DNA of 64,000 nucleotides from Desulfobaccales bacterium (GCA_049580385.1 JBAUPV010000030.1:577721-641720), one strand, 5' to 3'. Numbered from the stretch's first letter, positions 22,141-46,171 are shown. The notes: a model not told the origin generated them from the letters alone. Numbers and translations are program-made.

Positions 22141-22206
22141 GTAGGATAAAGACCGACTTGGGGGCTGGTAAGAGTCCTATGGAAAAATCAGACTCATGCG
22201 GACAGC
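22141..22206 (+). promoter_or_regulatory. 66-nt conserved element, copy A
   Basis: GTAGGATAAAGACCGACTTGGGGGCTGGTAAGAGTCCTATGGAAAAATCAGACTCATGCGGACAGC. Aligns without gaps to copies B, C and D. Ends 212 nt upstream of the ATG at 22419. Confidence 0.75.
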
Positions 22207-22418
22207 TTTTCAACCTGGGCTGTGAGAGTTTAGGGGCGTGAAGAAATGAGTTTTCCGAAGTTTGCCGATCAGCAGAGCAGTTTTTAAATGTGCGGAGAAT
22301 TTGGCCTGGATGGCCGTCCGTTTCTAAGCCGAGGTTCAGTTTAACTGCTGGCGGCTAACAGCAGGAGCTATCTCCCCGAATTCGCGGCGAACAGCCCACA
22401 TCAGCAAAGGAGAAGAAA

Positions 22419-23582
22419 ATGTCGTATTACATGTATGACGGGTCCACGGAAGTGACTCCCTGGGAAAGGATGTTCGCCACCATGAATGGCGAAAAGCTTG
22501 ATAGGGTCCCGGTGCATCTCTACCCGCGCTGGACCGCTCTCGAATACCTGGGGCTTACCTTCAAGCAGTCATGGGATGATCCCGATCTGTATGCCAAGGC
22601 GCAGATCATGGCTCAGCAGCGGTTCCAGTATGACTGTGCCGTCGACTTCGATATGATGGGACCGGTTGAAGAAGCCATCGGTGCGACCCTCAAGTACCCC
22701 GAGGATGATGTCCCCCAGATTGCCGAGCCCTTCATCAAGACCAAAGAGGACATGAAGAAGGCCAAATGGAAGCTCGATCCGCGCAAAGACGGCAATATGC
22801 CCAAGGTTCTGCACTGCATCAAGAGCCTGAAGTCAGGGCTGATCAAGGCAGGCAACGGCACCCAGAAGGTGCCCATTATGACCTGGGGCAGTTGCCCTTC
22901 CCGGACCGCCGCCTGTCTGACAGGTTTCAAGGAGTGGTTCCTGATCGTCGCCCGGGACCCGGATTGGGCCCTCGAACTCATGCAAGCCGCCATGGACGGC
23001 TGGCTGCAAATGGTCATTGCCGCTCATGAAGCGGGAGCCGACTGCGTTTGGGTCAACGACCCGGTTTCCTCGGCCGACTGCATCTCCAGGAAACATTATG
23101 AAACCTTGACCCAGCCGTTTGAACGCAAGTTCATCGAGGCCATCCGGCGTGAAACCGGTATGAAGATCATCTTCCATCCTTGTGGGAACTGGCATGACCG
23201 TCTCGATCTCGTCTATCAGAACCAAGCCGACGGCTATTTCCTAGGCCCGATGAATATCGATCTTTGCACCCAAAAGGCTGTCGAGGTCAGAGACGCCGGT
23301 CTCAATCCGCACCTGAAGTTCCTTAACGGCAATTTCGGTGCGGCCACCAAGAGTTCTACGGCGGACCGGAAGCCCGTCCCTTATGCCACCACCCTCAAAT
23401 TCGGCACCCCTGAGGAACTTATCGAGGAGAGCAGGATTATCATCGAGACCGTTGAAGGCGGTGGTCTGCGCTGCATGCTCGGCCCCAACTGTTGGGAGCC
23501 GAAGGGGGCCGCTAACATCAACCGCGATGCGGTGGTCTACGCGGCGCGCCGGCACGGCAGTTACCTCAAAAAAGAAGAGTAA
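22419..23582 (+). CDS. URO-D-family methyltransferase (MtaA/MtbA/MtsA-like, Zn type)
   Basis: 387 aa. N-terminal ...ERMFATMNGEKLDRVPV... typical of the family. Zn motif H-x-C (IFHPCGNW) plus downstream Cys (LRCMLGPNCW). Confidence 0.75.
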   Translation: MSYYMYDGSTEVTPWERMFATMNGEKLDRVPVHLYPRWTALEYLGLTFKQSWDDPDLYAKAQIMAQQRFQYDCAVDFDMMGPVEEAIGATLKYPEDDVPQIAEPFIKTKEDMKKAKWKLDPRKDGNMPKVLHCIKSLKSGLIKAGNGTQKVPIMTWGSCPSRTAACLTGFKEWFLIVARDPDWALELMQAAMDGWLQMVIAAHEAGADCVWVNDPVSSADCISRKHYETLTQPFERKFIEAIRRETGMKIIFHPCGNWHDRLDLVYQNQADGYFLGPMNIDLCTQKAVEVRDAGLNPHLKFLNGNFGAATKSSTADRKPVPYATTLKFGTPEELIEESRIIIETVEGGGLRCMLGPNCWEPKGAANINRDAVVYAARRHGSYLKKEE

Positions 23583-23591
23583 ATCGGGAGG

Positions 23592-24236
23592 ATGACGGTG
23601 GAAATATTAGCGGAAATCGCCAAAGCGGTCTATGACGGAGATGAGCCGAAAACACTCGAGCTTGTCAAGAAGGCGATGGCTGAAGGCGTAGGCGCCCAGG
23701 ACATCGTGGATAAGGGGTTGGTAAAGGGGCTCCACGAATGTGGCGCCGGCTACGAGGCCGGAGAGAAGTTCATCCCCGAGATGCTGATGGCGGCTGAAGC
23801 CATGAAGGCCTCCATGGCGGTTCTCAAACCGCATCTCGTGGTCGGGGAGTCCGTCGGCGGCAAGGTCGTGTTGGCCACAGTTGAAGGCGACGTCCATGAC
23901 ATCGGCCTCGAACTGGTTGCCACCATGCTGGGCAGCGCCGGCCTGGAAGTCAATTTCATGGGGCCGGACGTGGAAACATCCCGCATCATCGCGGCGGTAA
24001 AGGAGGACAAACCTCAATTGCTGGGATTATCCGCGCTGCTTACCAACACGATGGATACTATGCCCGTGATCATCAAGAAACTTGAGCAGGAAGGCCTCAG
24101 AAGTTCGCTCAAGGTAATCATCGGGGGCGCCCCGGTTTCTCAGGATTTCGCGGACCTGATCGGGGCGGACGGCTACGCCTACGATGCCGCCGCGGCCGTT
24201 CCGGTGGCGAAAAAGCTGGTGAGCCAAGTGGCCTGA
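23592..24236 (+). CDS. Corrinoid (B12-binding) protein, MtaC/MtbC/MtsB-like
   Basis: B12-binding DxHxxG motif EGDVHDIGLELV, followed by LLGLSALLT and IIGGAP. N-terminal helical cap domain. The true start may be GTG 23598, which has better spacing from GGGAGG. Confidence 0.85.
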   Translation: MTVEILAEIAKAVYDGDEPKTLELVKKAMAEGVGAQDIVDKGLVKGLHECGAGYEAGEKFIPEMLMAAEAMKASMAVLKPHLVVGESVGGKVVLATVEGDVHDIGLELVATMLGSAGLEVNFMGPDVETSRIIAAVKEDKPQLLGLSALLTNTMDTMPVIIKKLEQEGLRSSLKVIIGGAPVSQDFADLIGADGYAYDAAAAVPVAKKLVSQVA

Positions 24237-24271
24237 TGATCCCAAGTTCCCGGTAACCCGTAAGTGATGCC

Positions 24272-24313
24272 AATCGGCTATCTCGTCTTAAACGGGATAG
24301 CCGATTTCTTTTC
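24272..24313 (+). terminator. Rho-independent terminator
   Basis: AATCGGCTATC (24272-24282) pairs perfectly with GATAGCCGATT (24296-24306), followed by TCTTTTC. Lies 36 nt after the corrinoid-protein stop. Confidence 0.7.
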
Positions 24314-24409
24314 ACAAAATCATGTTGTATTAAATAGAGCCTTCCGCCCCCTCCGGGAACTGAGCATTGGAGATGCGGTATCCGTAATATTCAATGGTCG
24401 CAAGGGGAG

Positions 24410-24685
24410 ATGGAAAGGCTTGAGAGAGTGATCTCGCCAAAGTACAACCCCGATCCCTGGAAGAAGTGGATGGACAGGCTCGATAAAATCTATGGAAATG
24501 GTTCCATCTTCGAGAAGATGTATGCCATCGCCCAGGAGGTTCCTGCCAACGCTTACGCCATCGATATAGTTCCGAAACGCTGGTGGAAGCCGAACCCGCC
24601 CTGGTGGAATAACTCCGATACGGCGCCGTGGAGGAGAGGAACCGGCTGCTTCGCGAGATCCCTCGAAAAGAAGACCCCCGGATAG
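24410..24685 (+). CDS. Hypothetical 91-aa Trp/Pro-rich protein (uncertain)
   Basis: ORF in a lower-GC gap between convergent genes. Composition is protein-like (WWKPNPPWWNN), but the SD abuts the ATG. Confidence 0.25.
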   Translation: MERLERVISPKYNPDPWKKWMDRLDKIYGNGSIFEKMYAIAQEVPANAYAIDIVPKRWWKPNPPWWNNSDTAPWRRGTGCFARSLEKKTPG

Positions 24686-24731
24686 CCACTCAGTTGGCGT
24701 CGATCCTGCCAACCCCGTCAGACTTACAGCT

Positions 24732-25607
24732 TTAAGCAGCCTGGCGCGCCCGGAACCCCTTGATCCACTTCATGCCGTGGGGGTCTCTCCCTTCTATCAG
24801 GTCGGCAGCTTGCAGGGCACTCGCTTCTTGCTTTTTTAACGGGTTGCAGATCGGGCAGGTCAAACCGGCTTCCACTGAGAGCGCCAGAAAAACTGCAGTC
24901 AGGGTTTCCCGGTCGGGCATACCAAAGGAGATGTTGGATGCGCCCATGGTAATATTGACCCCGAAGCTGTTGACGATCATGCGTACGGCCTCCAGAACCA
25001 TCTTGCCAGCTCGCCACTCGGTTCCCAGCGTTAAGACGAGAGGGTCGATCACGATGTCCTCGGCGGGGATTCCCAGTTTGCCAGCCTCTTCGATGATCTT
25101 GGCGGCATTCTGAAATCTTTCGTCAGCGGTCTTGGGGATACCGGTATCTCCGCTGCATAGCCCAATGACCGGGCAGCCATACTCTTTAATCAGAGGCAAC
25201 ACCGCCTTGAGGCGCTTGGTTTCCGCACTCACCGAATTCACCAAGGGCCTGGCCCCGTCTTTACAGTAGTAGTTGAGAGCCGCTGCCAGCGTCTCAGTTC
25301 TGGGAGAATCGATGCAGATCGGAAAGTCATCCGTTGCTGCTCTGATTTCCTTGATAATTTGAACCATCAGGACGGACTCATCGGCGCCAGGCACTCCGGC
25401 ATTCACGTCCAGGATCCCGGCCCCCGCGGCAATCTGGGCCAGGGCATCCCTGCGAACCATATCGAATCTGCCCTCGCTCAGTTCAGCCCGCAGCACCTTT
25501 CGGCCGGTGGGGTTTATCCTTTCCCCGATGATCACCACCCCCTGGTCACGGCAGATGCGCGTTTCCTTTTTCGCTGATTTAACTAAAGTAGTAAGATTGG
25601 TCGTCAT
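24732..25607 (-). CDS. Pterin-binding methyltransferase (methyl-H4folate:corrinoid, AcsE/MtrH/MetH-domain-like)
   Basis: VIIGERINPTGRK...AGAGILDVNAG...ICIDSP...LVNSVS, a TIM-barrel pterin-binding signature. Start set at the ATG at 25607 (MTTNLTTLVK). Confidence 0.8.
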   Translation of the reverse strand: MTTNLTTLVKSAKKETRICRDQGVVIIGERINPTGRKVLRAELSEGRFDMVRRDALAQIAAGAGILDVNAGVPGADESVLMVQIIKEIRAATDDFPICIDSPRTETLAAALNYYCKDGARPLVNSVSAETKRLKAVLPLIKEYGCPVIGLCSGDTGIPKTADERFQNAAKIIEEAGKLGIPAEDIVIDPLVLTLGTEWRAGKMVLEAVRMIVNSFGVNITMGASNISFGMPDRETLTAVFLALSVEAGLTCPICNPLKKQEASALQAADLIEGRDPHGMKWIKGFRARQAA

Positions 25608-25897: not shown

Positions 25898-26722
25898 TTA
25901 TTCAGTTACTCCCAGCTTTTTGACTTCATCCATCACGGCGGGTTCCACCACCGGGACGACTGCTTTTTCCTTCTCCATGGCGTCTTTCTCGGGAATTGCG
26001 AAGGTCCCCGGTACCACGGTGACCAAACCATGGATGTTGACTATGGGATAGCCGTCGTGGACCCAACCCCTGAATCCATCAGTGACATTAATGATTTTCC
26101 CGGAATAGCCCATGTCGATCATAATCTTATGGACGATGGCGCCTCGATTGGAACCATTTTCAGGAGTCCCGGCCTTGCACATGAGGTAGTAGGTGGCCGT
26201 GGAGTCCGGGGCGATACTCGGGAGCAGCCAGTAAGCCAGGCCGGTGTCCAGGCGGATTGCTCCGGGGACATGCCCCGCCGCGAATTCCGATTCCATACGC
26301 ACATCCAGGAGGTGAATTTTAGGATTTTTCCAGCCTTCCTGCTCAATCCAAAGTTTGTAGAAATCGTCGGCGGAAATCCCTATGCCATACTGCCACATTA
26401 TGGGACGAAATTCATTCTGGCCGTTTTCGAAAAGCTCCTTGGGGGTCAGGACTGCTCCCGTATGACGCGGAGTCAGGGTTTTGCTGATGATGTAATTCTT
26501 ACCCCGGCCCATGGCCTCGAGTTGTTCCTTAGTCCAGGGCTTCTTGGAAAACTCCAGGATCTGTTTTTCCGTCCAGTCTTTGCTGGGGCCTACGCCCTGG
26601 TCCTGGGCGCCCTGAGCTTTGGCGGCCCCCTCCTCTGCCGCCAAGGCGAGAGAACCAGTGAAGAGAATGGCCACCAAGATGGCAAATACCGATACAACCG
26701 CGCTCCTTCTAAGTTTTTCCAT
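25898..26722 (-). CDS. Exported single-domain rhodanese-like sulfurtransferase
   Basis: Signal peptide MEKLRRSAVVSVFAILVAILFTGSLALAAEE. Rhodanese block HLLDVRMESEFAAGHVPGAIRL and active-site loop YYLMCKAGTPENGSNRG. RBS AAAGGAG before the ATG at 26722. Confidence 0.75.
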   Translation of the reverse strand: MEKLRRSAVVSVFAILVAILFTGSLALAAEEGAAKAQGAQDQGVGPSKDWTEKQILEFSKKPWTKEQLEAMGRGKNYIISKTLTPRHTGAVLTPKELFENGQNEFRPIMWQYGIGISADDFYKLWIEQEGWKNPKIHLLDVRMESEFAAGHVPGAIRLDTGLAYWLLPSIAPDSTATYYLMCKAGTPENGSNRGAIVHKIMIDMGYSGKIINVTDGFRGWVHDGYPIVNIHGLVTVVPGTFAIPEKDAMEKEKAVVPVVEPAVMDEVKKLGVTE

Positions 26723-26966: not shown

Positions 26967-27032
26967 GCTGTCCGGGAGAGTCTGATTTTTTTATAGGATA
27001 ATCCCTCTCCTATAAGTCCGCATTTGTCCTAC
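26967..27032 (-). promoter_or_regulatory. 66-nt conserved element, copy C
   Basis: Minus-strand read: GTAGGACAAATGCGGACTTATAGGAGAGGGATTATCCTATAAAAAAATCAGACTCTCCCGGACAGC. Ends 244 nt upstream of the rhodanese ATG at 26722. Confidence 0.75.
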
Positions 27033-34446: not shown

Positions 34447-34512
34447 GTAGGACAAAAACCGACCAGCCACCGTAAGTAAATCCTATAAATAAATAGGACA
34501 CTTCCCGATTGC
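34447..34512 (+). promoter_or_regulatory. 66-nt conserved element, copy D (most divergent)
   Basis: GTAGGACAAAAACCGACCAGCCACCGTAAGTAAATCCTATAAATAAATAGGACACTTCCCGATTGC. Keeps GTAGGAC, ACCGAC, TCCTAT and TAGGAC at the same columns. Ends 94 nt upstream of the ATG at 34607. Confidence 0.6.
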
Positions 34513-35120: not shown

Positions 35121-35186
35121 GTAGGACAGATACCGACCTTGTGATGGCAAAAGGTCCTATAAGATAATCAGACTCATGCGGACAAT
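35121..35186 (+). promoter_or_regulatory. 66-nt conserved element, copy B
   Basis: GTAGGACAGATACCGACCTTGTGATGGCAAAAGGTCCTATAAGATAATCAGACTCATGCGGACAAT. Ends 155 nt upstream of the ATG at 35342. Confidence 0.75.
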
Positions 35187-38427: not shown

Positions 38428-39243
38428 ATGTCGGCGCCACCTAAAGGATCCAAGAATGGCAGCCTCGGTAAAAAGGTCCAGAAGGTCCTGACGGATAGGT
38501 CAGCCTACCGGGGCTGTTTTTCTATCATCGTCTTCCTGATCATCTGGGAGTTAGGCACCAGGTACGGCCTGCCAATCCTCAAGTCTATTCCGCCTCCGAG
38601 CGCGGTTCTGATTGCGTTCAAAGAGTCGTTCGTGGACCCGGCGTATTGGGGTGACTGGGGGAATAGCTTTGTACGGATTGGCCTCGGCTTCATTTTGGCC
38701 CAGATCATCGGCATTCCCCTGGGGCTGCTCATGGGAACCAGCCGCTACTTTCGGGAATTGAGTCTGCCGGTATTCGAGGTCTTGCGGCCCATACCGCCCC
38801 TGGCCTGGGTTCCCGCCGCGGCCCTTTTCTGGCCGACCCCTGAGATGAGTATCGTTTTCGTCACCTTTCTGGGCGCTTTTTTCGTGACGATCCTGAATAT
38901 CGTGGGCGGGGCCCGGAGTATCGACGCCCGCTTCATCCGGGCGGCTGTTTCGCTCGGGTCCAGCCGTAGAGATATCTTCTGGCGAATCGTTCTTCCCGCG
39001 ACCTTGCCCAGTATCATCGTGGCTTTGACGGTGGGCATCGGCGTCTGCTGGAACACGGTGGTGGCGGCCGAGATGCTCGCCGGCCACTCCGGCCTGGGGT
39101 TTCTGACCTGGCGGGCCTATGTGACCTTCACCTATCCCTTGATCGTGGTCGGCATGATCAGCATCGGCGTAGCCGGCTACATCTCCAGCGCTATTATCCG
39201 GCTTTTGGGAAGTCGTATGACGCCGTGGCTCAAAACCAGTTAA
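38428..39243 (+). CDS. ABC transporter permease 2
   Basis: 271 aa. EAA-type loop SIDARFIRAAVSLGSSRRDIFWRIVLPATLP. Paralog of permease 1. Confidence 0.8.
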   Translation: MSAPPKGSKNGSLGKKVQKVLTDRSAYRGCFSIIVFLIIWELGTRYGLPILKSIPPPSAVLIAFKESFVDPAYWGDWGNSFVRIGLGFILAQIIGIPLGLLMGTSRYFRELSLPVFEVLRPIPPLAWVPAAALFWPTPEMSIVFVTFLGAFFVTILNIVGGARSIDARFIRAAVSLGSSRRDIFWRIVLPATLPSIIVALTVGIGVCWNTVVAAEMLAGHSGLGFLTWRAYVTFTYPLIVVGMISIGVAGYISSAIIRLLGSRMTPWLKTS

Positions 39244-39264: not shown

Positions 39265-40167
39265 ATGACTGAAATGCCGCAACCGATTGCCAACGGGCAG
39301 AACGGCCACTACCAAGTCCTGGCGCAGGCCGCGTCGGCCGAGATGATTGTAGAGAACGTGCGTAAGAGCTACGGGATCCACCCGGTGGTCCAGGTGCTGG
39401 AGGATTGCTCCCTGGTGCTGGAGAACCGTAAGCTCACGGTTTTGATCGGTCCTTCGGGCTGCGGCAAGAGCACCCTGATCAACATCCTGGCCGGCTATGA
39501 CCTGCCGGATTCGGGAAAGGTCACCATCGACGGCCAACCGGTCAGGGGACCGGGACGCGACCGTCTGGTAGTCTTTCAAGAAACCGCTCTCTTTCCCTGG
39601 ATGACCACCTTTCAGAACGTCAGTTACGGGCCCCAGGTTCGGAAGGAAATGGGCAAGGAAGCCTTGCAGGCGGAAACGATGAAGCTGCTTAAGCTGGTCG
39701 GGCTCGAAGCCTTCGCAGACAAGTATCCCTCACAACTTTCGGGCGGCATGATGCGCAGGGCCGAATTGGTCAGGGCCTTGATTAACCGGCCCAAGGTCAT
39801 GCTCATGGACGAACCGTTCCGGGGACTGGACGCCATGACCCGGGAGTTGATGCAGGAGTATTACGTCCGTCTCTTCGAGACCAAACCCGGGACCAACCTG
39901 TTTGTGACCACGGAGATCGATGAGGCCATTTTCCTGGCGGACCGGCTCGTGATCATGAGCAACCGGCCAGCCAGCATCAGAAAGGTCATCGACATCAATC
40001 TGCCCAGGCCGCGCCAGTTCCAGATGCTCACTTCCAAGGAATATCTGGGATATAAGAAGGATGCCTTGGAAATACTTCATGTGGAAGCCATGAAGGCCTT
40101 TGCTAAGGGTAAGCAGGACGCTGCCGACTTTATGGAGGCATATTCAAAGACCGCAGGCAATCCTTGA
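39265..40167 (+). CDS. ABC transporter ATP-binding protein 2
   Basis: Walker A GPSGCGKST, signature LSGGMMRR, Walker B MLMDEPF. The start may be the ATG at 39274, which has better SD spacing. Confidence 0.85.
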   Translation: MTEMPQPIANGQNGHYQVLAQAASAEMIVENVRKSYGIHPVVQVLEDCSLVLENRKLTVLIGPSGCGKSTLINILAGYDLPDSGKVTIDGQPVRGPGRDRLVVFQETALFPWMTTFQNVSYGPQVRKEMGKEALQAETMKLLKLVGLEAFADKYPSQLSGGMMRRAELVRALINRPKVMLMDEPFRGLDAMTRELMQEYYVRLFETKPGTNLFVTTEIDEAIFLADRLVIMSNRPASIRKVIDINLPRPRQFQMLTSKEYLGYKKDALEILHVEAMKAFAKGKQDAADFMEAYSKTAGNP

Positions 40168-40295
40168 TGAGGGCTAATTCATCCCAAAATATCTTCGGGT
40201 ACCGGAAATGGATTCCGGGCGTGGGCAATAGGCTGATGTTGGCGTCTTGGGCGGGATGCCGGCAGGCGACCCCCGGCATATAAATTGACTTCATT

Positions 40296-40338
40296 ATTCG
40301 ATATTTCTATAATTTAAGATATATAGATGTTATCGAAT
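40296..40338. promoter_or_regulatory. Inverted repeat in the AT-rich gap upstream of yeeE-like gene
   Basis: ATTCGATA (40296-40303) and TATCGAAT (40331-40338), perfect 8-bp arms with a 27-nt AT-rich spacer, inside a 250-nt gap. Confidence 0.35.
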
Positions 40339-40417
40339 CCGGTCACCTGGCAATAATCGAGGGTTTCTTATCTCCTTTCGGCATTAGACCCCGGACATTG
40401 CCTGCAGGAGATTCGTC

Positions 40418-41608
40418 ATGGCGGTTAACTCTCCATTGCTCAAAGAACTTAAGAGGGGCTACAGCCTTCTCTTCGAAAAGCAATGGCATCCGCTCGTGGG
40501 AGGGTTATTGATCGGGCTTCTGGCCATAATGATTGAGGCCTGGTCGCGGCCTTGGGGCATTGTGGCAGGAATCCGCAATTGGGCCGATTGGCTTTTTTAC
40601 GGAGTGGGCCTGTACGCCCACAAGCCGGAAAACCCCTTGCTCTTTTCCCCATCCGTGATGGATCTGGGCCTTATCCTGGGAAGCCTTGCCGCGGCGCTGC
40701 TGGCCAAAGAATTTGCCTTGCAAAGGCCTCCGAAACTCGAAGCAGTTAAGGGCCTGGTGGGGGGCCTGTTCATGGGAGTGGGCTCCTCGCTGGCTCTGGG
40801 ATGCAACGTCGGGGCTTTTTTCTCTCCTCTGGTCAACCTGTCCGCCAACGCTTTGTTGATGATGATCGGGTTGATCTGCGGCGCCTATCTCGGTCTTCGC
40901 TACATCCTCTGGGAAGTGGAAAACCTTCCTGCCCCCAGTCCCGCCTCAGCCGTAACTTCTCCCAAGCAGACCCCAACGTTCAATTGGAAGACGGCTCATC
41001 CCTATTTGGGCGCCCTGGTCTTGGTTGGCCTGGTGTTGGCGGCCCATCTCTATGGCAAGTTTTCCTATGGCGAAGCTGGGGGATTGCTGCTCTTTGGAGC
41101 CGCTTTCGGGGTCGTGATCCAGCGTTGCCGTTTCTGCTTTGTGCGCGCCTTTCGGGACCCCTTTATGACTGGTGAATCCGAGATCGGCAAGGCCGTGGCC
41201 ATCAGCATTATCATTGCCGTCATCGGTATTGCGGTGCTCAAGGCGACCGGCCTCAGGAGAGAGACCATGTATGTGATACCAGCCTTCGGTTGGGGCTCCT
41301 TGGTGGGAGGAGTCATTTTTGGCATCGGCATGGTCGTTGCCGGAGGCTGCGGCAGTGGGACCCTTTGGAGAGTGGCCGAAGGGAATATGAAGTTATGGAT
41401 TGCCTTGTTTGCTTTTGCCACCTCCAACTCCCTTATGACTGGATGGCTGCTAGCCTGGGGGATTCGTCCAACACTGGGTTCAGCAGTCTTCCTACCCCAC
41501 TACGTAGGTTGGGAAGGGGCCATCTTTTTGGTCATTGGCATTGCTCTGATCTGGTTAGTGATTCTTGCCTGGAATGAACAGACCAACAAATTCACCGTGG
41601 AACTCTGA
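40418..41608 (+). CDS. YeeE/YedE-family sulfur-compound (thiosulfate-type) transporter
   Basis: 396 aa, polytopic. Conserved Cys loops LALGCNVGAFF and VAGGCGSGTLWR, plus QRCRFCF. Confidence 0.8.
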   Translation: MAVNSPLLKELKRGYSLLFEKQWHPLVGGLLIGLLAIMIEAWSRPWGIVAGIRNWADWLFYGVGLYAHKPENPLLFSPSVMDLGLILGSLAAALLAKEFALQRPPKLEAVKGLVGGLFMGVGSSLALGCNVGAFFSPLVNLSANALLMMIGLICGAYLGLRYILWEVENLPAPSPASAVTSPKQTPTFNWKTAHPYLGALVLVGLVLAAHLYGKFSYGEAGGLLLFGAAFGVVIQRCRFCFVRAFRDPFMTGESEIGKAVAISIIIAVIGIAVLKATGLRRETMYVIPAFGWGSLVGGVIFGIGMVVAGGCGSGTLWRVAEGNMKLWIALFAFATSNSLMTGWLLAWGIRPTLGSAVFLPHYVGWEGAIFLVIGIALIWLVILAWNEQTNKFTVEL

Positions 41609-41684: not shown

Positions 41685-41924
41685 ATGGATGACCTCAAAC
41701 CCGACGAAGTTCTGGATTGCCGGGGCCTTAGTTGCCCTATGCCGATTCTCAAGATTAAGAGAGCCATAGCCAACATGAGCGCCGGCCAGGTCCTGGAGGT
41801 CTTGGGAACCGACCCCGGAACCAGGAACGACCTCCCTGCCTGGGCCAAACGGACCGGGAACGAGTATCTTGGCGAGAAAGAAGGAAGCGGTTTCATTCAC
41901 TTTTTTGTTCGAAAAGCCTCGTAG
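41685..41924 (+). CDS. TusA/SirA-family sulfur carrier
   Basis: 79 aa. LDCRGLSCPMPILKIKRAI with the CPxP active-site Cys. Confidence 0.85.
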   Translation: MDDLKPDEVLDCRGLSCPMPILKIKRAIANMSAGQVLEVLGTDPGTRNDLPAWAKRTGNEYLGEKEGSGFIHFFVRKAS

Positions 41925-41962: not shown

Positions 41963-42268
41963 ATGGAAGAAACGTTGGGAATATTGGTAGCCACGAAGGA
42001 TTCCCTGGAACACCTGCTGGGATTGGTGGCCGCGGCTCAAAAGAAGGGATTGCGCCTGGTTATCTTTCTGACCGCGGAGGGAGTCTTGCTCTCCCAGGAG
42101 CCCCGCTTCAGGGAACTTGCGGGCCGGGCGGAAATATCTTTGTGCGATGTCGGTTTCAAAGGCTTTGGGCTGCAAGGAGAGGTGCCTGGTCTGGAAAAGA
42201 AGGATTTCGCCACCCAGGCCAAGCACGCGGAAATGCTGGCAGACTGCAATTATTATTTCATGTTGTGA
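41963..42268 (+). CDS. DsrE/DsrF-like small protein
   Basis: 101 aa. LGILVATKD...LVIFLTAEGV...ISLCDVGFKGFGL fits the DsrE-fold pattern. From memory. Confidence 0.55.
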   Translation: MEETLGILVATKDSLEHLLGLVAAAQKKGLRLVIFLTAEGVLLSQEPRFRELAGRAEISLCDVGFKGFGLQGEVPGLEKKDFATQAKHAEMLADCNYYFML

Positions 42269-42280: not shown

Positions 42281-42571
42281 ATGCCTGCGAAAAAAGTGGC
42301 GATCCTGGCGCGCCACCCCCATCGCCAGTATGAGGCATTGCGGTCCAGCTTGGGGTGCCTCCTGGAAAACCATGAGGTGACTTACCTGGTGCTGGGGTAC
42401 GAGGTAGACCTGGACCAGGCCTATAGCGAGAACCTGGAGTTTTTGGATGAAATGGAAGGGACTCGCTTCAGCAATCACCCGGACAATGTGGAGAAGCATG
42501 GCTTCGGTTATCTTGACCTGGCCCAGATAGGGGAGTTGCTGCGAGAGCAGGACATCGTCATTCCTTTCTGA
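42281..42571 (+). CDS. DsrE/DsrF-like small protein
   Basis: 96 aa. KKVAILARHPH...VTYLVLGYEV. Size, position and beta-alpha pattern are consistent with a DsrF-type partner. Confidence 0.45.
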   Translation: MPAKKVAILARHPHRQYEALRSSLGCLLENHEVTYLVLGYEVDLDQAYSENLEFLDEMEGTRFSNHPDNVEKHGFGYLDLAQIGELLREQDIVIPF

Positions 42572-42579
42572 GAGGGGAT

Positions 42580-42753
42580 ATGAAGATTTTACACGTGTTT
42601 CGGCATCCGCCGGATGAGGTGGTTCTGGAATTGGCGGCTATCGTTTCCCGGGAGAGAGAGGCCGCCGAATTTCCACTGTATCAGGATGGGGTCGATTATG
42701 ATCTGCTGTTGGAGTTGATACTTAGCAACGACCAGGTAATTACCTGGTGGTAA
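42580..42753 (+). CDS. 57-aa ORF, possibly a truncated DsrH-like protein (absent from the ORF track)
   Basis: Hand translation: MKILHVFRHPPDEVVLELAAIVSREREAAEFPLYQDGVDYDLLLELILSNDQVITWW. GAGAGGGG lies 2 nt before the ATG, which is 9 nt after the previous stop. Confidence 0.45.
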   Translation: MKILHVFRHPPDEVVLELAAIVSREREAAEFPLYQDGVDYDLLLELILSNDQVITWW

Positions 42754-43185: not shown

Positions 43186-44040
43186 ATGTCATATACACGC
43201 ATTATTATTCTGTTATCGCTAACCATGATTTTATTTGCGAGTAATTCCCTGCTATGCAGGGCCGCTCTCAAGAGTACCAGCATTGACGCAGCCAGCTTTA
43301 CGACAATTCGCTTAATTTCCGGAGCGATTATACTGTGGGTGATAGTGCGAACGAATCACGGCACCCATGTCGGTGGCGGCAACTGGCCGTCAGCTTTTAT
43401 GCTGTTCGTTTATGCTATCGGATTTTCTTTCGCCTATATCAGTCTATCTGCCGCAACCGGTGCCTTACTGCTCTTCAGTGCCGTAGAGGCGACCATGATC
43501 AGCCATGGGATTTGGATGGGAGAACGTCTGCGCAGAGTACAGCTTCTCGGCCTCGTCCTCGCCTTCAGTGGATTTGTCGGTCTGTTGCTGCCAGGGCTCA
43601 CGGCCCCTCCCCTGGGCGGTTCCATATCGATGTTAATCGCCGGGGTGGCTTGGGGCATATATTCTTTGCGCGGGAGAGGGGCGAGAGATCCCGTCAAGTC
43701 AACTGCAGGGAATTTCCTGCGCGCCGTCCCCATGGCGCTGGCACTGAGTATATTGAGCTTTAAAGGCGCCACTCTCGATAATGCCGGAGTCGTCTATGCG
43801 ATAGCGTCGGGCGCCCTGGCTTCTGGAATAGGGTACTCCATCTGGTATATGGCCTTACCCGCCTTAAAGGCTACCAGCGCCGCCATAGTGCAACTCTGTG
43901 CCCCGGTTATTGCGGCCCTGGGTGGCCTCGTCTTGCTTGGTGAGCCTATAACCATGCGCCTGGCGCTGGCCTGCGTAGCTATACTCGGTGGGATCGCCCT
44001 GGCAATTCTGGAGAAGCGCAATGGTAACTTCGCCAACTAG
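43186..44040 (+). CDS. EamA/DMT-family transporter
   Basis: 284 aa, 10 TM in two similar halves. Lower GC than the neighbouring genes. Confidence 0.75.
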   Translation: MSYTRIIILLSLTMILFASNSLLCRAALKSTSIDAASFTTIRLISGAIILWVIVRTNHGTHVGGGNWPSAFMLFVYAIGFSFAYISLSAATGALLLFSAVEATMISHGIWMGERLRRVQLLGLVLAFSGFVGLLLPGLTAPPLGGSISMLIAGVAWGIYSLRGRGARDPVKSTAGNFLRAVPMALALSILSFKGATLDNAGVVYAIASGALASGIGYSIWYMALPALKATSAAIVQLCAPVIAALGGLVLLGEPITMRLALACVAILGGIALAILEKRNGNFAN

Positions 44041-44124: not shown

Positions 44125-44133
44125 TGGTATAAT
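44125..44133 (+). promoter_or_regulatory. Extended -10 promoter
   Basis: TGgTATAAT at 44125-44133, with a weak -35. Would give a leader of about 180 nt before the ATG at 44321. Confidence 0.45.
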
Positions 44134-44221
44134 GGAAAAGTCGACCCCGCCAACGCTACGATTTAGGCCCCGCTTTCCTGATCCTGGCGCTGGGGGTTAT
44201 TCCCCGATCAGGGCCTTCGGG

Positions 44222-44335
44222 CTCTGCCGCTGCCACCGGCAAGGCTGAGGTGCGGCGGGAAAATGTGAGAACCCGGGTGAAATGCCCGGTTGGCAAGCAA
44301 CTGCAAAGGCGAAGCCGGTAATGAGTCCGACCATT
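44222..44335 (+). promoter_or_regulatory. Cobalamin-riboswitch-like leader
   Basis: GCCGC (44226-44230) and GCGGC (44252-44256) form a stem that closes onto GGGAAAA. GAGAA follows. Hairpin CCGGG-UGAAAUG-CCCGG at 44273-44289. Then GUUGGCAAGCAACUGCAAAGG. This order matches the remembered B12-element core (AGGGAA / NCCGGUGNNAAUCCGG / GCUG.C..GCA.C.G.AA.GG). The 3' B12 box is only partial (AGUCCGACC, over the start codon). Confidence 0.5.
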
Positions 44336-46171
44336 CGTATCCTTGGCCGTCCGCAGCCTATAACCGTTGAGGATGGTTCGACTCTTTTGAAGGCGCTGGT
44401 TGCGGCAGGATTTTCCGTCGCGGCCGATTGCGGCGGCAAGGGCAAATGCGGCCGCTGCAAGGTCAAGGTTCATAAAGGGGCATCGCGTCTGCCGCTCGCG
44501 CCGGTGGAGAGCAAACGCCTCGGAGACGCGGAGGCCGCCCGGGGCTTGCGGCTGGCCTGTCAACATGCGGCTGTTGATGGGCTGGTTTTGGAAGTCGTCG
44601 AAGAGTTGTATCGGCAGGAAGTCTACAAAAGGCTTGGGATTGGCCTTGGCCGGCCTTTACCGGTGAGCCCCTCTGTCCACCTGGTTCCTCTTCCCGGTGG
44701 GGAAATTGAAAGTGCCTTGGCGGCAGCAGGGCTTCTCAAGGAGGTCGACTGGCCGGCCATCCTGCCGGACGCCGGGCGTTGCCAACCCCCCGCCGGTGAG
44801 AGACCTGCCGTGTCCGCTGGTCTTCCCCCATCGTGCTGCTCTGCGCTCGTCACCGAGTTTAACCGGGTAATCGGGCTGGTGGCGCCCTCTTTTGCGCCTT
44901 ACGGGGTCGCAGTCGATTTGGGGACCAGCACCATAGCCGTCTACCTGGGCAACCTGCAAACAGGAGAAGTCCTCGGCATCGAGAGCGCCCGCAATCCTCA
45001 AATCTCCTTCGGAGCCGATGTCATGAGCCGGATCACGGCTTGCAGGGATCCCAAGGATGCGGAAACCCTGAGAGAGATGGCCCGTGGGACCATATCTGCC
45101 TGCATCCGGACCCTGGGCCGGCGCTATGACCTTCCCCAGGAAAGTCTGGTGGACGCGCTGGTGGTGGGAAACTCCACCATGATCCACATTCTCCTGGGAG
45201 CCCCCGTGCACGGCCTGGGAGTCGCCCCCTATCGGCCCCTATTTCATGAAAGCCTCAAAGTTCGAGCGCAGGAAATCGGATTGCCGCTCCATGCGGGCGC
45301 CTTCGTGCAAACTCTCCCTCTGCCCTCGGCCTTTGTAGGCGCCGATACGATGGCCGCCTGGTTGTGGGTGGAGCGTACTGGGGATGAAGGCCCGACGCTG
45401 CTTTTGGACCTGGGGACCAACGGAGAGATGGTGCTTTCGGTAAACGGCCGCCTGTGGGCCACCTCCTGCGCCACCGGTCCCGCCTTCGAAGGCGCCACCC
45501 TCAGTTGCGGCATGGCCGGAATGCCCGGCGCCATCGAGAAGGTGGCCTTCCTGGATGGGGCTCTGGAACTGAAGGTGATCGGGGACTCCGCAGATCCTGC
45601 CATCCGCCCGCAGGGCCTTTGCGGTTCTGGCGCCATGTCGGCGCTGGCGGCTCTCCTGAAGTGCGGCATCATTCGTCCTGACGGGAGATTCGAGCCGGGT
45701 TTGCATCATAAGTCTCTGCGGCGTACGCCTGCAGGAGTCGAATTCATTCTCGCTTCGGCTAAACAGGCTGCCAATGGACGGCCTGTCGTCATGACCCAGA
45801 AAGATGTTCGGGAATTACAGCTTGCCAAGGGCGCCGTCGCCACCGGGATTAAGTTCCTCTGTAAGGCTGCAGGAATCCGGGCGCCGGCACGCATACTTCT
45901 GGCCGGAGCCTTTGGCAACGTTATTGCGGCAGAGGATGCCATTACTATGGGTATGGTCCCCAGGATCGATGCCGGCAGAATCGCCGGAATCGGCAATGCC
46001 GCCGGGCTGGGGGCCTCACTGGCCCTCTTGGATATTCGGGGCCGCCGGCGTGCCGAGGCGCTGCTTCACGAAATGGAGGTGGTAGAAATGGGCGACGCCC
46101 CGGGTTTCAGAGAGGCCTTCTTTGCAAGCCTTGCCTTTCCGGAAGGACGGCAAGCGGACCGAGAGCTTTAA
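44321..46171 (+). CDS. RACo-type reductive activator of corrinoid proteins ([2Fe-2S] ferredoxin + ASKHA ATPase)
   Basis: N-terminal plant-type ferredoxin (CGGKGKCGRCKV...LACQ). ASKHA phosphate motifs DLGTSTIAVYL and LDLGTNGEM. Confidence 0.8.
   Translation: MSPTIRILGRPQPITVEDGSTLLKALVAAGFSVAADCGGKGKCGRCKVKVHKGASRLPLAPVESKRLGDAEAARGLRLACQHAAVDGLVLEVVEELYRQEVYKRLGIGLGRPLPVSPSVHLVPLPGGEIESALAAAGLLKEVDWPAILPDAGRCQPPAGERPAVSAGLPPSCCSALVTEFNRVIGLVAPSFAPYGVAVDLGTSTIAVYLGNLQTGEVLGIESARNPQISFGADVMSRITACRDPKDAETLREMARGTISACIRTLGRRYDLPQESLVDALVVGNSTMIHILLGAPVHGLGVAPYRPLFHESLKVRAQEIGLPLHAGAFVQTLPLPSAFVGADTMAAWLWVERTGDEGPTLLLDLGTNGEMVLSVNGRLWATSCATGPAFEGATLSCGMAGMPGAIEKVAFLDGALELKVIGDSADPAIRPQGLCGSGAMSALAALLKCGIIRPDGRFEPGLHHKSLRRTPAGVEFILASAKQAANGRPVVMTQKDVRELQLAKGAVATGIKFLCKAAGIRAPARILLAGAFGNVIAAEDAITMGMVPRIDAGRIAGIGNAAGLGASLALLDIRGRRRAEALLHEMEVVEMGDAPGFREAFFASLAFPEGRQADREL

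What the first reader, a model, noticed from the sequence alone, without database searches (positions are those of the whole stretch)
22141..46171. Candidate undescribed system: corrinoid-dependent demethylation of an imported organosulfur compound coupled to a sulfur relay
Units linked by the shared 66-nt element, plus nearby genes, add up to a coherent but uncharacterised pathway.

Components:
- A NitT/TauT-type ABC importer (35342-40167).
- A Zn-type (H-x-C...C) URO-D-family methyltransferase, a corrinoid protein and a pterin methyltransferase (22419-25607).
- A RACo-type corrinoid reactivase (44321-46171).
- Sulfur-handling proteins: an exported rhodanese (25898-26722), and YeeE, TusA and three DsrE/F/H-like proteins (40418-42753).

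The Zn motif is the one MT2 enzymes (MtaA/MtbA/MtsA) use for thiol or thioether chemistry.

Inference: methyl groups move from a methylated sulfur compound (methylthiol, thioether or similar) via Co to H4folate. The released sulfur moiety is then handled by the rhodanese/TusA/DsrE relay. The substrate cannot be deduced from sequence.
Basis: inference. Interest (0 to 1): 0.8.

Follow-up and report, generated by a model that had tools for sequence, protein, structure and literature searches.

The report
Corrinoid methyl-sulfur/selenium methyltransferase regulon
An uncultured sulfate-reducer relative carries a co-regulated gene set that probably strips methyl groups from an imported methyl-sulfur (or methyl-selenium) compound with vitamin B12 and passes them to folate; it is a new variant of a known kind of system and its substrate is still unknown.

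Summary
The window comes from a Desulfobaccales MAG. Four copies of a 66-nt promoter/operator element, not the two or three implied, precede:
- the URO-D-type methyltransferase (MT) and corrinoid protein operon;
- a minus-strand rhodanese and H4folate-methyltransferase (MeTr) operon;
- a small secreted ORF;
- the NitT/TauT-type ABC operon.

The same element sits 150-365 nt upstream of the same genes in about 20 related MAG loci.

The MT belongs to a small, discrete, uncharacterised clade. Members share at least 48% identity, and the next relatives share 36% or less. Its His-x-Cys...Cys zinc triad is invariant, and published work treats that triad as the signature of S/Se methyltransferases rather than O-demethylases.

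- YeeE-TusA-DsrE-like has its own promoter and also occurs without the MT.
- Only the first small ORF was shown to have a DsrE fold.
- A conserved Tat-exported TRAP binding protein that follows the corrinoid gene in 22 loci is reduced here to a deletion remnant.
- The concept is not undescribed. Methanococcus SdmABC and the 'mlp' gene clusters are close analogues, and they are linked mainly to methyl-selenide use.

Whether the substrate is sulfur or selenium, and the direction of transfer, remain open. Transfer from a thioether to folate is thermodynamically uphill.

Verdict: partly supported; a new variant of a known kind.

The parts
22141..22206 (+). Shared 66-nt promoter/operator element, copy 1, 213 nt upstream of the MT gene
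   Evidence: PWM score 89.5 bits. The element sits at the same position in 17 related loci.
22419..23582 (+). URO-D superfamily corrinoid methyltransferase with a His253-x-Cys255...Cys358 zinc triad; member of a discrete uncharacterised clade
23592..24236 (+). Corrinoid (B12-binding) protein with a DxHxxG motif
   Evidence: Always adjacent to the MT in all loci.
24272..24306 (+). 15-bp-stem hairpin followed by a T-run (terminator or attenuator) after the corrinoid gene
24344..24673 (+). Remnant (C-terminal 110 codons) of a Tat-exported DctP-like TRAP binding-protein gene. About 1043 bp are deleted relative to the close relative L016.
24732..25607 (-). MeTr-type methyl-H4folate:corrinoid methyltransferase (pterin-binding)
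   Evidence: PRK07535, 288 bits against a cut-off of 259; Pterin_bind domain
25898..26722 (-). Exported single-domain rhodanese-like protein, upstream of MeTr on the same strand
   Evidence: The Rhod-MeTr pair is conserved in at least 12 loci.
26967..27032 (-). Shared element, copy 2, 245 nt upstream of the rhodanese gene
   Evidence: 86.1 bits; same position in 10 loci
34447..34512 (+). Shared element, copy 3
   Evidence: 73.8 bits
34607..34882 (+). Small ORF (91 aa) with a signal peptide and a Pro/Ala/Lys-rich body, downstream of element copy 3
   Evidence: No homologue was found in the fetched loci, so its reality as a gene is uncertain.
35121..35186 (+). Shared element, copy 4, 156 nt upstream of the ABC binding-protein gene
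   Evidence: 82.2 bits; same position in 5 sites across L006, L007, L027 and the window
35342..36451 (+). NMT1/SsuA/TauA-like periplasmic substrate-binding protein; ligand unknown
36557..37483 (+). ABC permease 1
37483..38373 (+). ABC ATPase 1. The start ATG overlaps the permease stop codon and has an AAGGGAG ribosome-binding site.
38428..39243 (+). ABC permease 2
39265..40167 (+). ABC ATPase 2
40285..40345 (+). Separate promoter (TTGACT-17-TATAAT) with an ATTCGATA...TATCGAAT palindrome, upstream of YeeE
40418..41608 (+). YeeE/YedE-family membrane protein (Sulf_transp), below the cut-offs of both the YedE/FdhT and the TsuA models
41685..41924 (+). TusA-like sulfur carrier (CPxP motif)
41963..42268 (+). 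Small protein with a DsrE-like fold and an invariant Cys61
42281..42571 (+). Conserved 96-aa protein of the TusA cassette; fold unknown
42580..42753 (+). Conserved 57-aa protein of the TusA cassette; fold unknown
43186..44040 (+). EamA/DMT-family permease; possible exporter (inference)
   Evidence: Adjacent to RACo-HK-RR in L008 and L009 as well.
44282..46171 (+). RACo-type ATP-dependent reductive activator of corrinoid proteins
46175..48400 (+). Sensor histidine kinase (periplasmic domain, HAMP, PAS, HisKA_3); probable regulator of the element (inference)
   Evidence: The element precedes the HK gene in L010-L012.
48420..49061 (+). NarL/LuxR-type response regulator

Best explanation
This is a two-component-regulated regulon for taking up a methylated chalcogen compound and demethylating it with a corrinoid.

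Proposed mechanism:
1. The most likely substrate is an anionic methylthio compound, that is, a methylthio-carboxylate or -sulfonate. A methylseleno analogue is not excluded.
2. The substrate enters through the NitT/TauT-type ABC system. In relatives it also enters through a Tat-exported TRAP binding protein, which is decayed in this strain.
3. The zinc (His-Cys-Cys) URO-D-type methyltransferase binds the S/Se atom and lets Co(I) of the corrinoid protein take the methyl group.
4. The MeTr-type enzyme passes the methyl group to H4folate, which feeds the methyl branch of the Wood-Ljungdahl pathway.
5. RACo re-reduces corrinoid that has been oxidised to an inactive state.
6. The kinase and response regulator next door switch on the units through the shared 66-nt promoter/operator.

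The periplasmic rhodanese belongs to the regulon. YeeE-TusA-DsrE-like is a separately promoted, general sulfur (or selenium) hand-off module that is a frequent neighbour, not a demonstrated part of the pathway.

What is shown and what is inferred:
- Shown: the gene identities, the zinc triad, the shared element and its conservation, and the neighbourhood conservation.
- Inferred: the substrate class, the direction of transfer, which regulator binds the element, and any hand-over of the chalcogen product.
For: - Parts list: an MT1-type URO-D enzyme, a corrinoid protein, an H4folate methyltransferase above its curated cut-off, and RACo.
- The His-x-Cys...Cys triad aligns with the HxC of MtaA 4AY7. 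It is invariant in the family and in its nearest outgroups. Kountz & Balskus (PMC10418091) report that this coordination sphere marks S/Se methyltransferases of the UroD superfamily, while O-methyltransferases replace the cysteines.
- Co-regulation: four element copies in the window, and 39 further copies at fixed distances upstream of the MT, rhodanese, binding-protein and kinase genes in relatives.
- MT and corrinoid protein are always adjacent. Their partner varies: MeTr in arrangements A, B and E, and a canonical MtaA-like enzyme in D. This fits the family being the substrate-specific half-reaction.
- Sulfur genes sit next to the MT in four different arrangements: rhodanese-MeTr; YeeE-TusA-DsrE-like; TauE; and CoA-disulfide-reductase-rhodanese plus tandem DsrC.
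- Uptake systems for organic anions: the ABC binding protein is nearest to TauA/SsuA, and the DctP-like protein keeps the G-x-K-I-R arginine.
- In Acidobacteriia the MT cluster lies between FTHFS, MTHFR and FolD.
Against: - No relative has been characterised. The family is known only from MAGs.
- Methyl transfer from a thioether to a pterin is uphill by roughly 30 kJ/mol (my own knowledge: the Mtr reaction and methionine synthase). Known sulfate reducers demethylate the sulfonium DMSP but not its thioether product.
- The same parts list (URO-D methyltransferases, corrinoid protein, YedE, TusA/DsrE-like, transporters) is the selenium-starvation response of Methanococcus (PMC11097638).
- The binding-protein matches are weak (36-51 bits), so the ligand class is a guess.
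- XylR_N-type regulators next to two Desulfobacterales loci hint at aromatic or hydrophobic effectors.
- The role of a periplasmic rhodanese in a cytoplasmic methyl transfer is unexplained.
Confidence: 0.42

Rival explanations
1. Selenium scavenging. The regulon releases selenium from methylated selenium compounds (dimethylselenide, methylselenol, Se-methyl amino acids). The methyl group goes to folate merely to recycle the corrinoid. The rhodanese, the YedE-like protein, TusA and the DsrE-like protein carry the selenium towards selenophosphate synthetase.
For: - Methanococcus induces SdmABC-like URO-D methyltransferases with a corrinoid protein, YedE, TusA/TusD and transporters under selenium starvation (PMC11097638).
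- More than 90% of type 1 mlp clusters are inferred to be selenium-linked, and ClMlp2 methylates selenide faster than sulfide.
- The window's YeeE scores best on the YedE/FdhT selenium model: 157.7 bits, against 118 for TsuA.
- YedF is a TusA-DsrE fusion (PMC5322559). Here TusA and a DsrE-fold protein are adjacent.
- Selenolate is a better leaving group, which eases the thermodynamic problem (my own knowledge).
- The host lineages (Syntrophobacterales, Desulfobacterales) are among the most selenoprotein-rich bacteria (my own knowledge).
Against: - All selenium-model scores are below their cut-offs.
- No selD, selA, selB or selenoprotein gene was found in the parts of the window that I scanned.
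- The DsrE-like protein lacks the CGxC motif of YedF.
- Two high-capacity importers and a dedicated H4folate methyltransferase look oversized for a trace element.
- The Acidobacteriia version sits among C1-folate enzymes with no chalcogen-carrier genes.
- The TusA cassette also occurs alone, next to an ArsR-type regulator and a DsrE2-like gene, which is a typical sulfur context.
Confidence: 0.2
2. Reverse direction: a split, MetH-like thiol S-methyltransferase. MeTr loads the corrinoid from methyl-H4folate, and the zinc MT methylates a thiol or sulfide. The sulfur could be imported, or delivered through YeeE/TusA. The products would be a thioether, methanethiol or DMS. This would be the unidentified 'thiol methylation' activity of anoxic peat and freshwater sediments.
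For: - The module composition equals the four modules of methionine synthase: a zinc thiol-binding barrel, a pterin barrel, a B12 domain and a reactivation function.
- This direction is exergonic (my own knowledge).
- The YeeE/TusA family imports sulfur into the cytoplasm (PMC11582611).
- In arrangement D an NADH persulfide-reductase-like gene lies directly upstream of the MT and could supply sulfide.
- The family occurs in peat, soil and lake MAGs of Acidobacteriia and Syntrophobacterales.
- EamA and TauE permeases could export the product.
Against: - A sensor-kinase-controlled regulon with binding-protein-dependent importers is the usual design of a catabolic pathway.
- No physiological benefit of methylating an imported thiol is evident.
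- In arrangement D a canonical MtaA-like enzyme is already present for the thiol-methylating half-reaction.
Confidence: 0.15
3. The MT is an O-demethylase for methoxylated aromatic acids derived from lignin. The transporters import vanillate- or syringate-like acids, and the sulfur genes are bystanders.
For: - Some URO-D-family MT1 enzymes are O-demethylases.
- The habitats are peat and soil.
- TRAP and MFS transporters lie nearby.
- XylR_N sigma-54 activators flank two loci.
- This direction is thermodynamically easy (my own knowledge).
Against: - The His-Cys-Cys triad is invariant, whereas O-methyltransferases of this superfamily replace the cysteines.
- The family profile scores 63.9 bits on MtaA.
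- The family's only curated model matches are to MtaA/CmuA-type models.
- Sulfur genes recur next to the MT in four arrangements.
Confidence: 0.07
4. There is no integrated pathway beyond the methyltransferase core. The MT system, the ABC importer and the sulfur-trafficking genes are independent modules that happen to lie together in a sulfur-rich genomic region.
For: - YeeE has its own promoter and operator.
- The TusA cassette occurs without the MT.
- Further sulfur genes (DedA-rhodanese; TauE with a PhsA-like reductase) lie upstream without the element.
- The Acidobacteriia and 48%-identity versions have no sulfur neighbours.
Against: - The shared element ties the MT-corrinoid, rhodanese-MeTr and ABC units together in about 20 loci.
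- The rhodanese is on the same strand as MeTr, directly upstream of it, and no terminator lies between them.
- Sulfur genes of different kinds recur beside the MT in rearranged contexts.
Confidence: 0.1

Closest known systems
Type 1 mlp gene clusters and Methanococcus SdmABC (Kountz & Balskus 2023, PMC10418091; Niess & Klein 2004, as cited in PMC11097638)
   Same: - URO-D-superfamily methyltransferases with a His-Cys-Cys zinc site, encoded next to a corrinoid protein and a RACE/RACo activase.
- Frequent neighbours in sulfur or selenium trafficking.
- Found only in anaerobes.
- Inferred methyl-S or methyl-Se (de)methylation.
   Different: - mlp clusters encode two or three Mlps and no H4folate methyltransferase. 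The window has a single MT of a separate clade (only 95 bits on TIGR01463, about 25% identity to an MtaA-like protein) plus a MeTr-type enzyme, binding-protein-dependent importers and a dedicated two-component regulon.
- I could not test membership of the Mlp1, Mlp2 or Mlp3 clades, because no reference sequences were available in the tools.
Methanogen methylthiol:CoM methyltransferases MtsA/MtsB and MtpA, and the MT2 enzymes MtaA and MtbA
   Same: - Same fold and zinc triad.
- A corrinoid-protein partner.
- MtsA and MtpA demethylate DMS, methanethiol and methylmercaptopropionate.
   Different: - The methyl acceptor there is coenzyme M (thioether to thioether, roughly isoenergetic). Here the partner is H4folate.
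- Scores are far below the MtaA and MtbA equivalog cut-offs: 67 against 400 and 75 against 600.
- The family has its own insertion of roughly 20 residues near residues 300-325.
Bacterial three-component methylotrophic systems with MT1, corrinoid protein, MT2 (H4folate) and an activase: O-demethylases Odm/Vdm/Mtv, chloromethane Cmu/Cdm, glycine betaine Mtg
   Same: - Overall logic: substrate to Co(I) to H4folate.
- A MeTr-like MT2 and a RACo-type activase.
- Gene clustering.
   Different: - Their MT1 enzymes act on O-, N- or halide-methyl donors and lack the His-Cys-Cys triad.
- CdmB matches at only 15 bits.
- None is known to be linked to rhodanese, TusA or YeeE genes.
Cobalamin-dependent methionine synthase MetH
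   Same: Same four functions: a zinc-thiolate barrel, a pterin barrel, a B12 domain and reactivation. MeTr and the corrinoid protein hit the MetH model at 119 and 109 bits.
   Different: - Here the functions are on separate polypeptides.
- The thiol barrel is URO-D-type, not the Hcy-binding PF02574 type.
- Reactivation is by ATP-dependent RACo, not by the AdoMet domain.
YeeE(TsuA)-YeeD(TsuB) and SoxT-TusA sulfur import modules
   Same: A YeeE-family membrane protein directly followed by a TusA-like carrier.
   Different: - Scores are below the TsuA cut-offs.
- The pair is followed by a three-gene cassette (one DsrE-fold protein and two unknowns) that is conserved in Thermodesulfobacteriota.

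Membership tests
URO-D superfamily corrinoid methyltransferases (SCMT-like branch: MtaA/MtbA/MtsA/Mlp) | URO-D TIM-barrel fold, detectable by PF01208 | tested here: met
   131 bits against a cut-off of 23.9. The best PDB match is MtaA 4AY7.
URO-D superfamily corrinoid methyltransferases (SCMT-like branch: MtaA/MtbA/MtsA/Mlp) | His-x-Cys...Cys zinc ligands | tested here: met
   H253, C255 and C358 are invariant. The HxC aligns with the HiCGN of MtaA. Zinc binding itself was not tested.
URO-D superfamily corrinoid methyltransferases (SCMT-like branch: MtaA/MtbA/MtsA/Mlp) | Adjacent cognate corrinoid protein | tested here: met
   Adjacent in every locus examined.
MtaA/CmuA family (TIGR01463) and the MtaA and MtbA equivalogs | Score above the curated cut-off | tested here: not met
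   95.4 against 235.4; 66.8 against 400; 75.3 against 600. Other family members score 107-108 bits.
Type 1 mlp gene cluster (Kountz & Balskus) | At least an Mlp2 and an Mlp3 encoded together with a corrinoid protein and a RACE protein | tested here: not met
   The window has only one URO-D gene. Arrangement D has two. Clade assignment to Mlp1-3 could not be made without reference sequences.
Type 1 mlp gene cluster (Kountz & Balskus) | No H4folate methyltransferase in the cluster | tested here: not met
   MeTr is present and lies in the same regulon.
Bacterial MT1-CP-MT2(H4folate)-activase methylotrophic systems | A pterin-binding MT2, a corrinoid protein and a RACo/RamA-type activase encoded together | tested here: met
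   RACo lies 18 kb from the MT in the window but is adjacent to it in L008 and L009.
Bacterial MT1-CP-MT2(H4folate)-activase methylotrophic systems | Demonstrated methyl transfer from substrate to H4folate | not testable with these tools
   Needs enzyme assays.
Aromatic O-demethylase MT I (OdmB/VdmB/MtvB type) | Zinc-ligand cysteines replaced by carboxylates or non-ligands; clusters with O-demethylases | tested here: not met
   Both cysteines are invariant. The criterion comes from PMC10418091. No phylogeny against reference O-demethylases was possible.
NitT/TauT-family ABC importer | NMT1/SsuA/TauA-type binding protein with BPD_transp_1 permeases and ABC ATPases | tested here: met
   NMT1_2, 38.6 bits against a cut-off of 24.7. 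The SsuA_fam match (50.9) is below its cut-off of 163.5. TauA 6SSY scores 36.5 bits.
DsrE/DsrF/DsrH (TusBCD) family | DsrE-like fold | tested here: met
   Met for 41963-42268 only: pLDDT 92.7, with top Foldseek hits 3PNX, 2QS7 and 2PD2. One homologue carries PF02635.
DsrE/DsrF/DsrH (TusBCD) family | Three paralogous DsrE-fold subunits forming a hetero-hexamer | tested here: inconclusive
   The second ORF shows no similarity to the first by hhalign and has no PDB hit. Its single-sequence model is unusable (pLDDT 53). The third ORF was not tested.
YedE/FdhT (selenium) versus TsuA (thiosulfate) subfamilies of YeeE | Score above the curated cut-off of either model | tested here: not met
   157.7 against 350 for YedE/FdhT; 118 against 400 and 108.7 against 645 for the two TsuA models.

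The most novel reading that the evidence does not exclude
This clade is the missing bacterial enzyme that lets sulfate reducers and peat Acidobacteria feed methyl groups from methylated sulfur compounds (methanethiol, DMS, methylthio-acids) into the folate pathway. The unfavourable thioether-to-folate step is made feasible because sulfurtransferases and redox proteins encoded alongside (rhodanese, TusA/DsrE-like, DsrC, persulfide reductase) capture the thiolate or sulfide leaving group. That would be a new principle: coupling a corrinoid methyl transfer to a sulfur relay.
Probability: 0.12. Interest if true: 0.85.

Novelty: new variant of a known kind. Interest (0 to 1): 0.55.

Why it matters
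Anoxic wetlands, peat and sediments cycle large amounts of methanethiol, DMS, methylthio-acids and methylated selenium. The bacterial, non-methanogen enzymes that remove or add these methyl groups under anoxia are essentially unidentified.

This clade pairs a thiol-type corrinoid methyltransferase with a folate methyltransferase. It comes with importers, a dedicated regulator and a clear promoter motif. That gives a concrete, synthesisable set of four proteins for testing how sulfate reducers, syntrophs and Acidobacteria handle methyl-sulfur or methyl-selenium compounds.

The 66-nt element also provides a ready marker for finding the rest of the regulon in MAGs.

Tried and rejected
- Riboswitch or RNA element. 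Rfam gave no hit at gathering threshold on the whole window, nor at E of 1 or less on the leader regions. The inverted repeat TAGGA...TCCTA shows no compensatory changes between copies. I therefore treat the element as DNA: a promoter plus an operator.
- Sequence-level assignment of the three small ORFs to DsrE/F/H. Pfam at E of 10 or less, NCBIfam and PDB phmmer all gave nothing. Only the fold search on the first ORF worked. The single-sequence AF2 model of the second ORF was unusable.
- Phylogenetic placement against named MtsA, MtpA, Mlp1-3 and O-demethylases. No reference sequences can be fetched with these tools. I used curated HMM scores, PDB profile scores and an exhaustive HMMER scan instead.
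- The upstream TauE, PhsA-like reductase and NuoF/GltD operon as part of the regulon. It has no element copy, and its synteny holds only in close relatives with MT identity of 91% or more. I left it out.
- The multihaem cytochrome and Rieske/cytochrome b genes between the units. They are conserved neighbours, and a cytochrome b gene also sits upstream of the MT in Desulfobacterales. They have no element copy and no evident role, so I left them out.
- Annotating the gaps in L010, L013 and L026. This gave only an integrase, ParA, an HdrD-like protein and a transporter, which were not informative.
- Literature searches for a described bacterial methanethiol, DMS or MMPA to H4folate system, or for Desulfobaccales corrinoid methyltransferases. 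They found none.

Full report
**Source and gene map.** The window is from an uncultured Desulfobaccales bacterium (Thermodesulfobacteriota). The MT protein is 95-97% identical to genes in Desulfobaccales and 'delta proteobacterium' MAGs, including the closed chromosome OY969108.1.

| Coordinates | Strand | Product |
|---|---|---|
| 22419-23582 | + | URO-D-type methyltransferase (MT) |
| 23592-24236 | + | Corrinoid protein, DxHxxG motif |
| 24732-25607 | - | MeTr-type pterin methyltransferase (PRK07535, 288 bits, cut-off 259) |
| 25898-26722 | - | Exported rhodanese (signal peptide) |
| 35342-40167 | + | NitT/TauT-type ABC system: binding protein, permease, ATPase, permease, ATPase |
| 40418-41608 | + | YeeE |
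| 41685-41924 | + | TusA |
| 41963-42753 | + | Three small ORFs |
| 43186-44040 | + | EamA permease |
| 44282-46171 | + | RACo |
| 46175-48400 | + | HAMP-PAS-HisKA_3 sensor kinase |
| 48420-49061 | + | NarL/LuxR-type response regulator |

ATPase 1 starts at the ATG at 37483, which overlaps the permease stop codon.

**The shared element.** The repeat finder recovered the two direct copies and one inverted copy.
- A position weight matrix finds exactly four copies in the window: 22141-22206 (+), 27032-26967 (-), 34447-34512 (+) and 35121-35186 (+). They score 74-90 bits, and the next best position scores -12.6.
- The copies precede the MT-corrinoid operon, the rhodanese-MeTr pair, a small secreted Pro/Ala/Lys-rich ORF (34607-34882) and the ABC operon.
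- A matrix built from the four window copies alone finds 39 further sites of at least 20 bits in 1.35 million positions of related loci. They lie 150-365 nt upstream of the MT (17), the rhodanese (10), the ABC binding protein (5) and, in L010-L012, the sensor kinase (3).
- The consensus is GTAGGAcAAAtAC.GACtt-N13-aTCCTATaaAAaAATCAGACtC-N3-CgGACAGc. It contains a TAGGA/TCCTA inverted repeat and a -35/-10-like pair.
- Rfam finds nothing in these regions, and the inverted repeat shows no compensatory changes.
- I read the element as a promoter with operator sites. The adjacent kinase and regulator are the probable controllers. This is an inference, based on the element preceding the kinase gene in L010-L012 and on the element being absent from lineages where no homologous kinase or regulator was seen near the MT.

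**What the element does not cover.**
- YeeE has its own near-consensus sigma-70 promoter (TTGACT-17-TATAAT, 40285-40313) with a different palindrome.
- The cassette of TusA and three small ORFs also occurs without any MT, next to an ArsR-type regulator and a DsrE2-like gene (L035 and L036).
- The first small ORF is a real, conserved protein (92 clusters). Its predicted structure (pLDDT 92.7) best matches DsrE/DsrF-like structures 3PNX, 2QS7 and 2PD2 (TM 0.66-0.74).
- The second and third small ORFs are conserved but show no detectable similarity to the first or to any PDB entry. A single-sequence model of the second was unusable.
- 'Three DsrE/F/H-like proteins' is therefore confirmed for one ORF only.

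**A missed component.**
- In 22 related loci the corrinoid gene is followed by a 452-aa DctP-like TRAP binding protein. It has a twin-arginine signal (SRRDFSRIA) and a conserved CGEMTCAEKC motif.
- It keeps the G-x-K-I-R arginine that TRAP binding proteins use for a carboxylate or sulfonate group.
- DctQM membrane genes follow it in Syntrophobacteraceae and Desulfobacterales loci.
- In the window a deletion of about 1043 bp has left only the last 110 codons (24344-24673). In the closest complete relative the gene carries a TAG nonsense codon.
- This sub-lineage seems to be losing the TRAP route and keeping the ABC route.

**The methyltransferase.**
- Its only PDB relatives by sequence are MtaA (4AY7; 39 bits alone, 63.9 bits with the family profile), several uroporphyrinogen decarboxylases (38.8 bits or less) and, marginally, the chloromethane methyltransferase CdmB (15 bits).
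- The HPCGN of the query aligns with the HiCGN zinc site of MtaA.
- H253, C255 and C358 are invariant in the family, in its nearest outgroups and in a canonical MtaA-like protein.
- All curated models are missed by a wide margin: TIGR01463 at 95 against 235, MtbA at 75 against 600, MtaA at 67 against 400.
- The family is small and discrete. In the word-indexed search, members share at least 48% identity and the next hits share 30% or less. In an exhaustive HMMER scan of 1.84 billion cluster representatives it collapses to one full-length representative. The next full-length relatives share 36% or less, and only 14 hits reach 1e-30.
- All members come from metagenomes or MAGs of Thermodesulfobacteriota and Acidobacteriota.

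**Neighbourhoods.** MT and corrinoid protein are always adjacent. Beyond that there are six arrangements.

| Arrangement | Lineage and MT identity | Genes around MT and corrinoid protein |
|---|---|---|
| A | Desulfobaccales, 85-100% | As in the window |
| B | Syntrophobacteraceae, about 80% | DctPQM or ABC systems, kinase-regulator, sometimes rhodanese-MeTr |
| C | Desulfobacterales, about 73% | cytochrome b, then MT, corrinoid protein, DctP, Usp, DctQM and TauE; YeeE-TusA-small ORFs divergent |
| D | Syntrophobacteraceae, about 72% | CoA-disulfide-reductase-rhodanese (persulfide-reductase-like), then MT, corrinoid protein, a canonical MtaA-like enzyme (above the PRK06252 and TIGR01463 cut-offs) and a tandem DsrC; plus RACo and an MFS permease; no MeTr |
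| E | Acidobacteriia, 65% | MeTr, DUF1638, MT and corrinoid protein, embedded among FTHFS, MTHFR and FolD; no sulfur genes |
| F | 48% | MT and corrinoid protein only |

Two points follow.
- The family is the constant partner of the corrinoid protein, while the second methyltransferase varies between a folate type and a thiol type. This fits the family being the substrate-specific half-reaction.
- Different kinds of sulfur-handling genes recur beside it in four arrangements.

**Comparison with the literature.**
- Kountz & Balskus (PMC10418091) described 'type 1 mlp gene clusters': SCMT-like URO-D methyltransferases, a corrinoid protein and a RACE activase, without a folate methyltransferase.
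- They argue that a His-Cys-Cys sphere marks S/Se methyltransferases, whereas O-methyltransferases of the superfamily replace the cysteines.
- They link most clusters to methyl-selenide use. Their evidence is co-occurrence with Sec machinery, Methanococcus voltae sdmABC, and ClMlp2 methylating selenide faster than sulfide.
- In M. maripaludis, selenium starvation induces the Sdm-like operon, YedE, TusA/TusD and several transporters (PMC11097638).
- YedF is a TusA-DsrE fusion associated with YedE and SelD (PMC5322559).
- YeeE-family proteins with a TusA-like partner import thiosulfate or sulfane sulfur (PMC11582611).
- Searches for a described bacterial methanethiol, DMS or MMPA to folate system, or for anything on Desulfobaccales corrinoid enzymes, found nothing.

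**Interpretation.** The best-supported reading is a regulon for uptake and corrinoid-dependent demethylation of an anionic methyl-chalcogen compound, with the methyl group going to H4folate. Desulfobaccales can oxidise methyl-H4folate through the reverse Wood-Ljungdahl pathway (established knowledge for Desulfobacca).
- For this reading: the sensor-kinase and importer design typical of catabolism, the zinc triad, the constant MT-corrinoid pair, and the folate enzymes next to the Acidobacteriia version.
- Against a plain thioether substrate: methyl transfer from methyl-pterin to a thiol releases about 30 kJ/mol (the Mtr and MetH reactions; my own knowledge). The reverse is therefore uphill unless the donor is activated, the chalcogen is selenium, or the product is removed.
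- This keeps three alternatives alive: selenium scavenging, which shares nearly the whole parts list; the reverse reaction, a split MetH-like thiol methylase that could be the unidentified thiol-methylating activity of peat; and, less likely because of the cysteine ligands, O-demethylation.
The rhodanese is periplasmic, the YeeE unit is separately controlled, and by analogy it imports sulfur.

**Novelty and verdict.** This is a new variant of a known kind. It has the architecture of bacterial MT1-corrinoid-MT2(folate)-activase systems, but its MT1 comes from the thiol/selenol-type branch so far known from methanogen Mts/Mtp enzymes and from Mlp/Sdm clusters. It also has a defined regulon and importers. 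The substrate and the direction of transfer remain open.

Noticed in passing
window 24344-24673, compared with L016 11917-12959: About 1043 bp are deleted, removing three quarters of a conserved Tat-exported DctP-like gene. The closest complete relative carries a TAG nonsense codon at a conserved Tyr codon of the same gene. The gene appears to be decaying in this sub-lineage while staying intact in 20 other loci.
   Followed up: yes
window 34447-34882: A fourth copy of the shared element lies 95 nt upstream of a 91-aa ORF with a signal peptide and a Pro/Ala/Lys-rich body ending in NEGC. No homologue was found in the fetched loci.
   Followed up: partly
window 40285-40345: The near-consensus promoter TTGACT-17-TATAAT in front of YeeE is flanked by and overlaps an ATTCGATA...TATCGAAT palindrome. 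This is probably the operator of another regulator. The same TusA cassette sits next to an ArsR-type gene in L035 and L036.
   Followed up: partly
window 14116-22096: An operon-like row of genes: TauE-family permease, a 197-aa unknown, a PhsA/PsrA-like molybdoenzyme without a Tat signal (582.7 bits to PhsA, cut-off 694), a 4Fe-4S protein, and a 1137-aa NuoF-GltD fusion. It looks like a cytoplasmic NAD(P)H-linked reductase for thiosulfate, polysulfide or a selenium oxyanion. It has no shared element, and its synteny with the MT holds only in close relatives.
   Followed up: partly
window 9709-12990: A DedA/VTT-family membrane protein is followed by a two-domain rhodanese (326 aa), next to a divergent PAS-sigma-54 activator. 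This is another sulfur- or selenium-flavoured unit in the same region.
   Followed up: no
window 27205-34380: Two multihaem cytochromes (754 and 647 aa), a Rieske protein, a b6-type cytochrome b and two unknown ORFs lie between the regulon units. A cytochrome b gene also sits directly upstream of the MT in Desulfobacterales loci (L017, L019, L032). The reason for this association is unknown.
   Followed up: partly
L034 (same contig as L022) 8206-14102; also L023, L025, L026: A variant cluster: a CoA-disulfide-reductase-rhodanese fusion, then the MT, the corrinoid protein, a canonical MtaA-like methyltransferase and a 218-aa tandem DsrC/TusE protein. It has no folate methyltransferase and resembles the published mlp/Sdm clusters.
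   Followed up: partly
window 49905-51736; L029 12092-12649: In the window an HdrD-like CCG protein is followed by a C_GCAxxG_C_C redox protein. A C_GCAxxG_C_C gene also lies directly beside the MT-corrinoid pair in the Acidobacteriia locus.
   Followed up: no
window 2423-2988 and 5130-5165: Clusters of 7-nt-period repeats (AGCTNNC/AGCTGAn) occur in direct and inverted orientation in intergenic DNA. Their nature is unknown.
   Followed up: no
window 1639-1895 and 12062-12318: A 203-nt direct repeat at 70% identity, with a further 31-nt match beside it, is explained by two paralogous sigma-54 activator genes (1041-2417 and 11461-12990, both on the minus strand).
   Followed up: yes
window 5167-6780 (-): A 537-aa protein combines a thymidylate-synthase-like region with a C-terminal PterinBD-DUF4346 domain, which is an unusual architecture.
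   Followed up: no
L032 439-2031 and L033 19708-21152: XylR_N-type sigma-54 activators flank the MT-corrinoid-DctPQM operons in Desulfobacterales, where the 66-nt element is absent. Different lineages regulate the same core in different ways.
   Followed up: no
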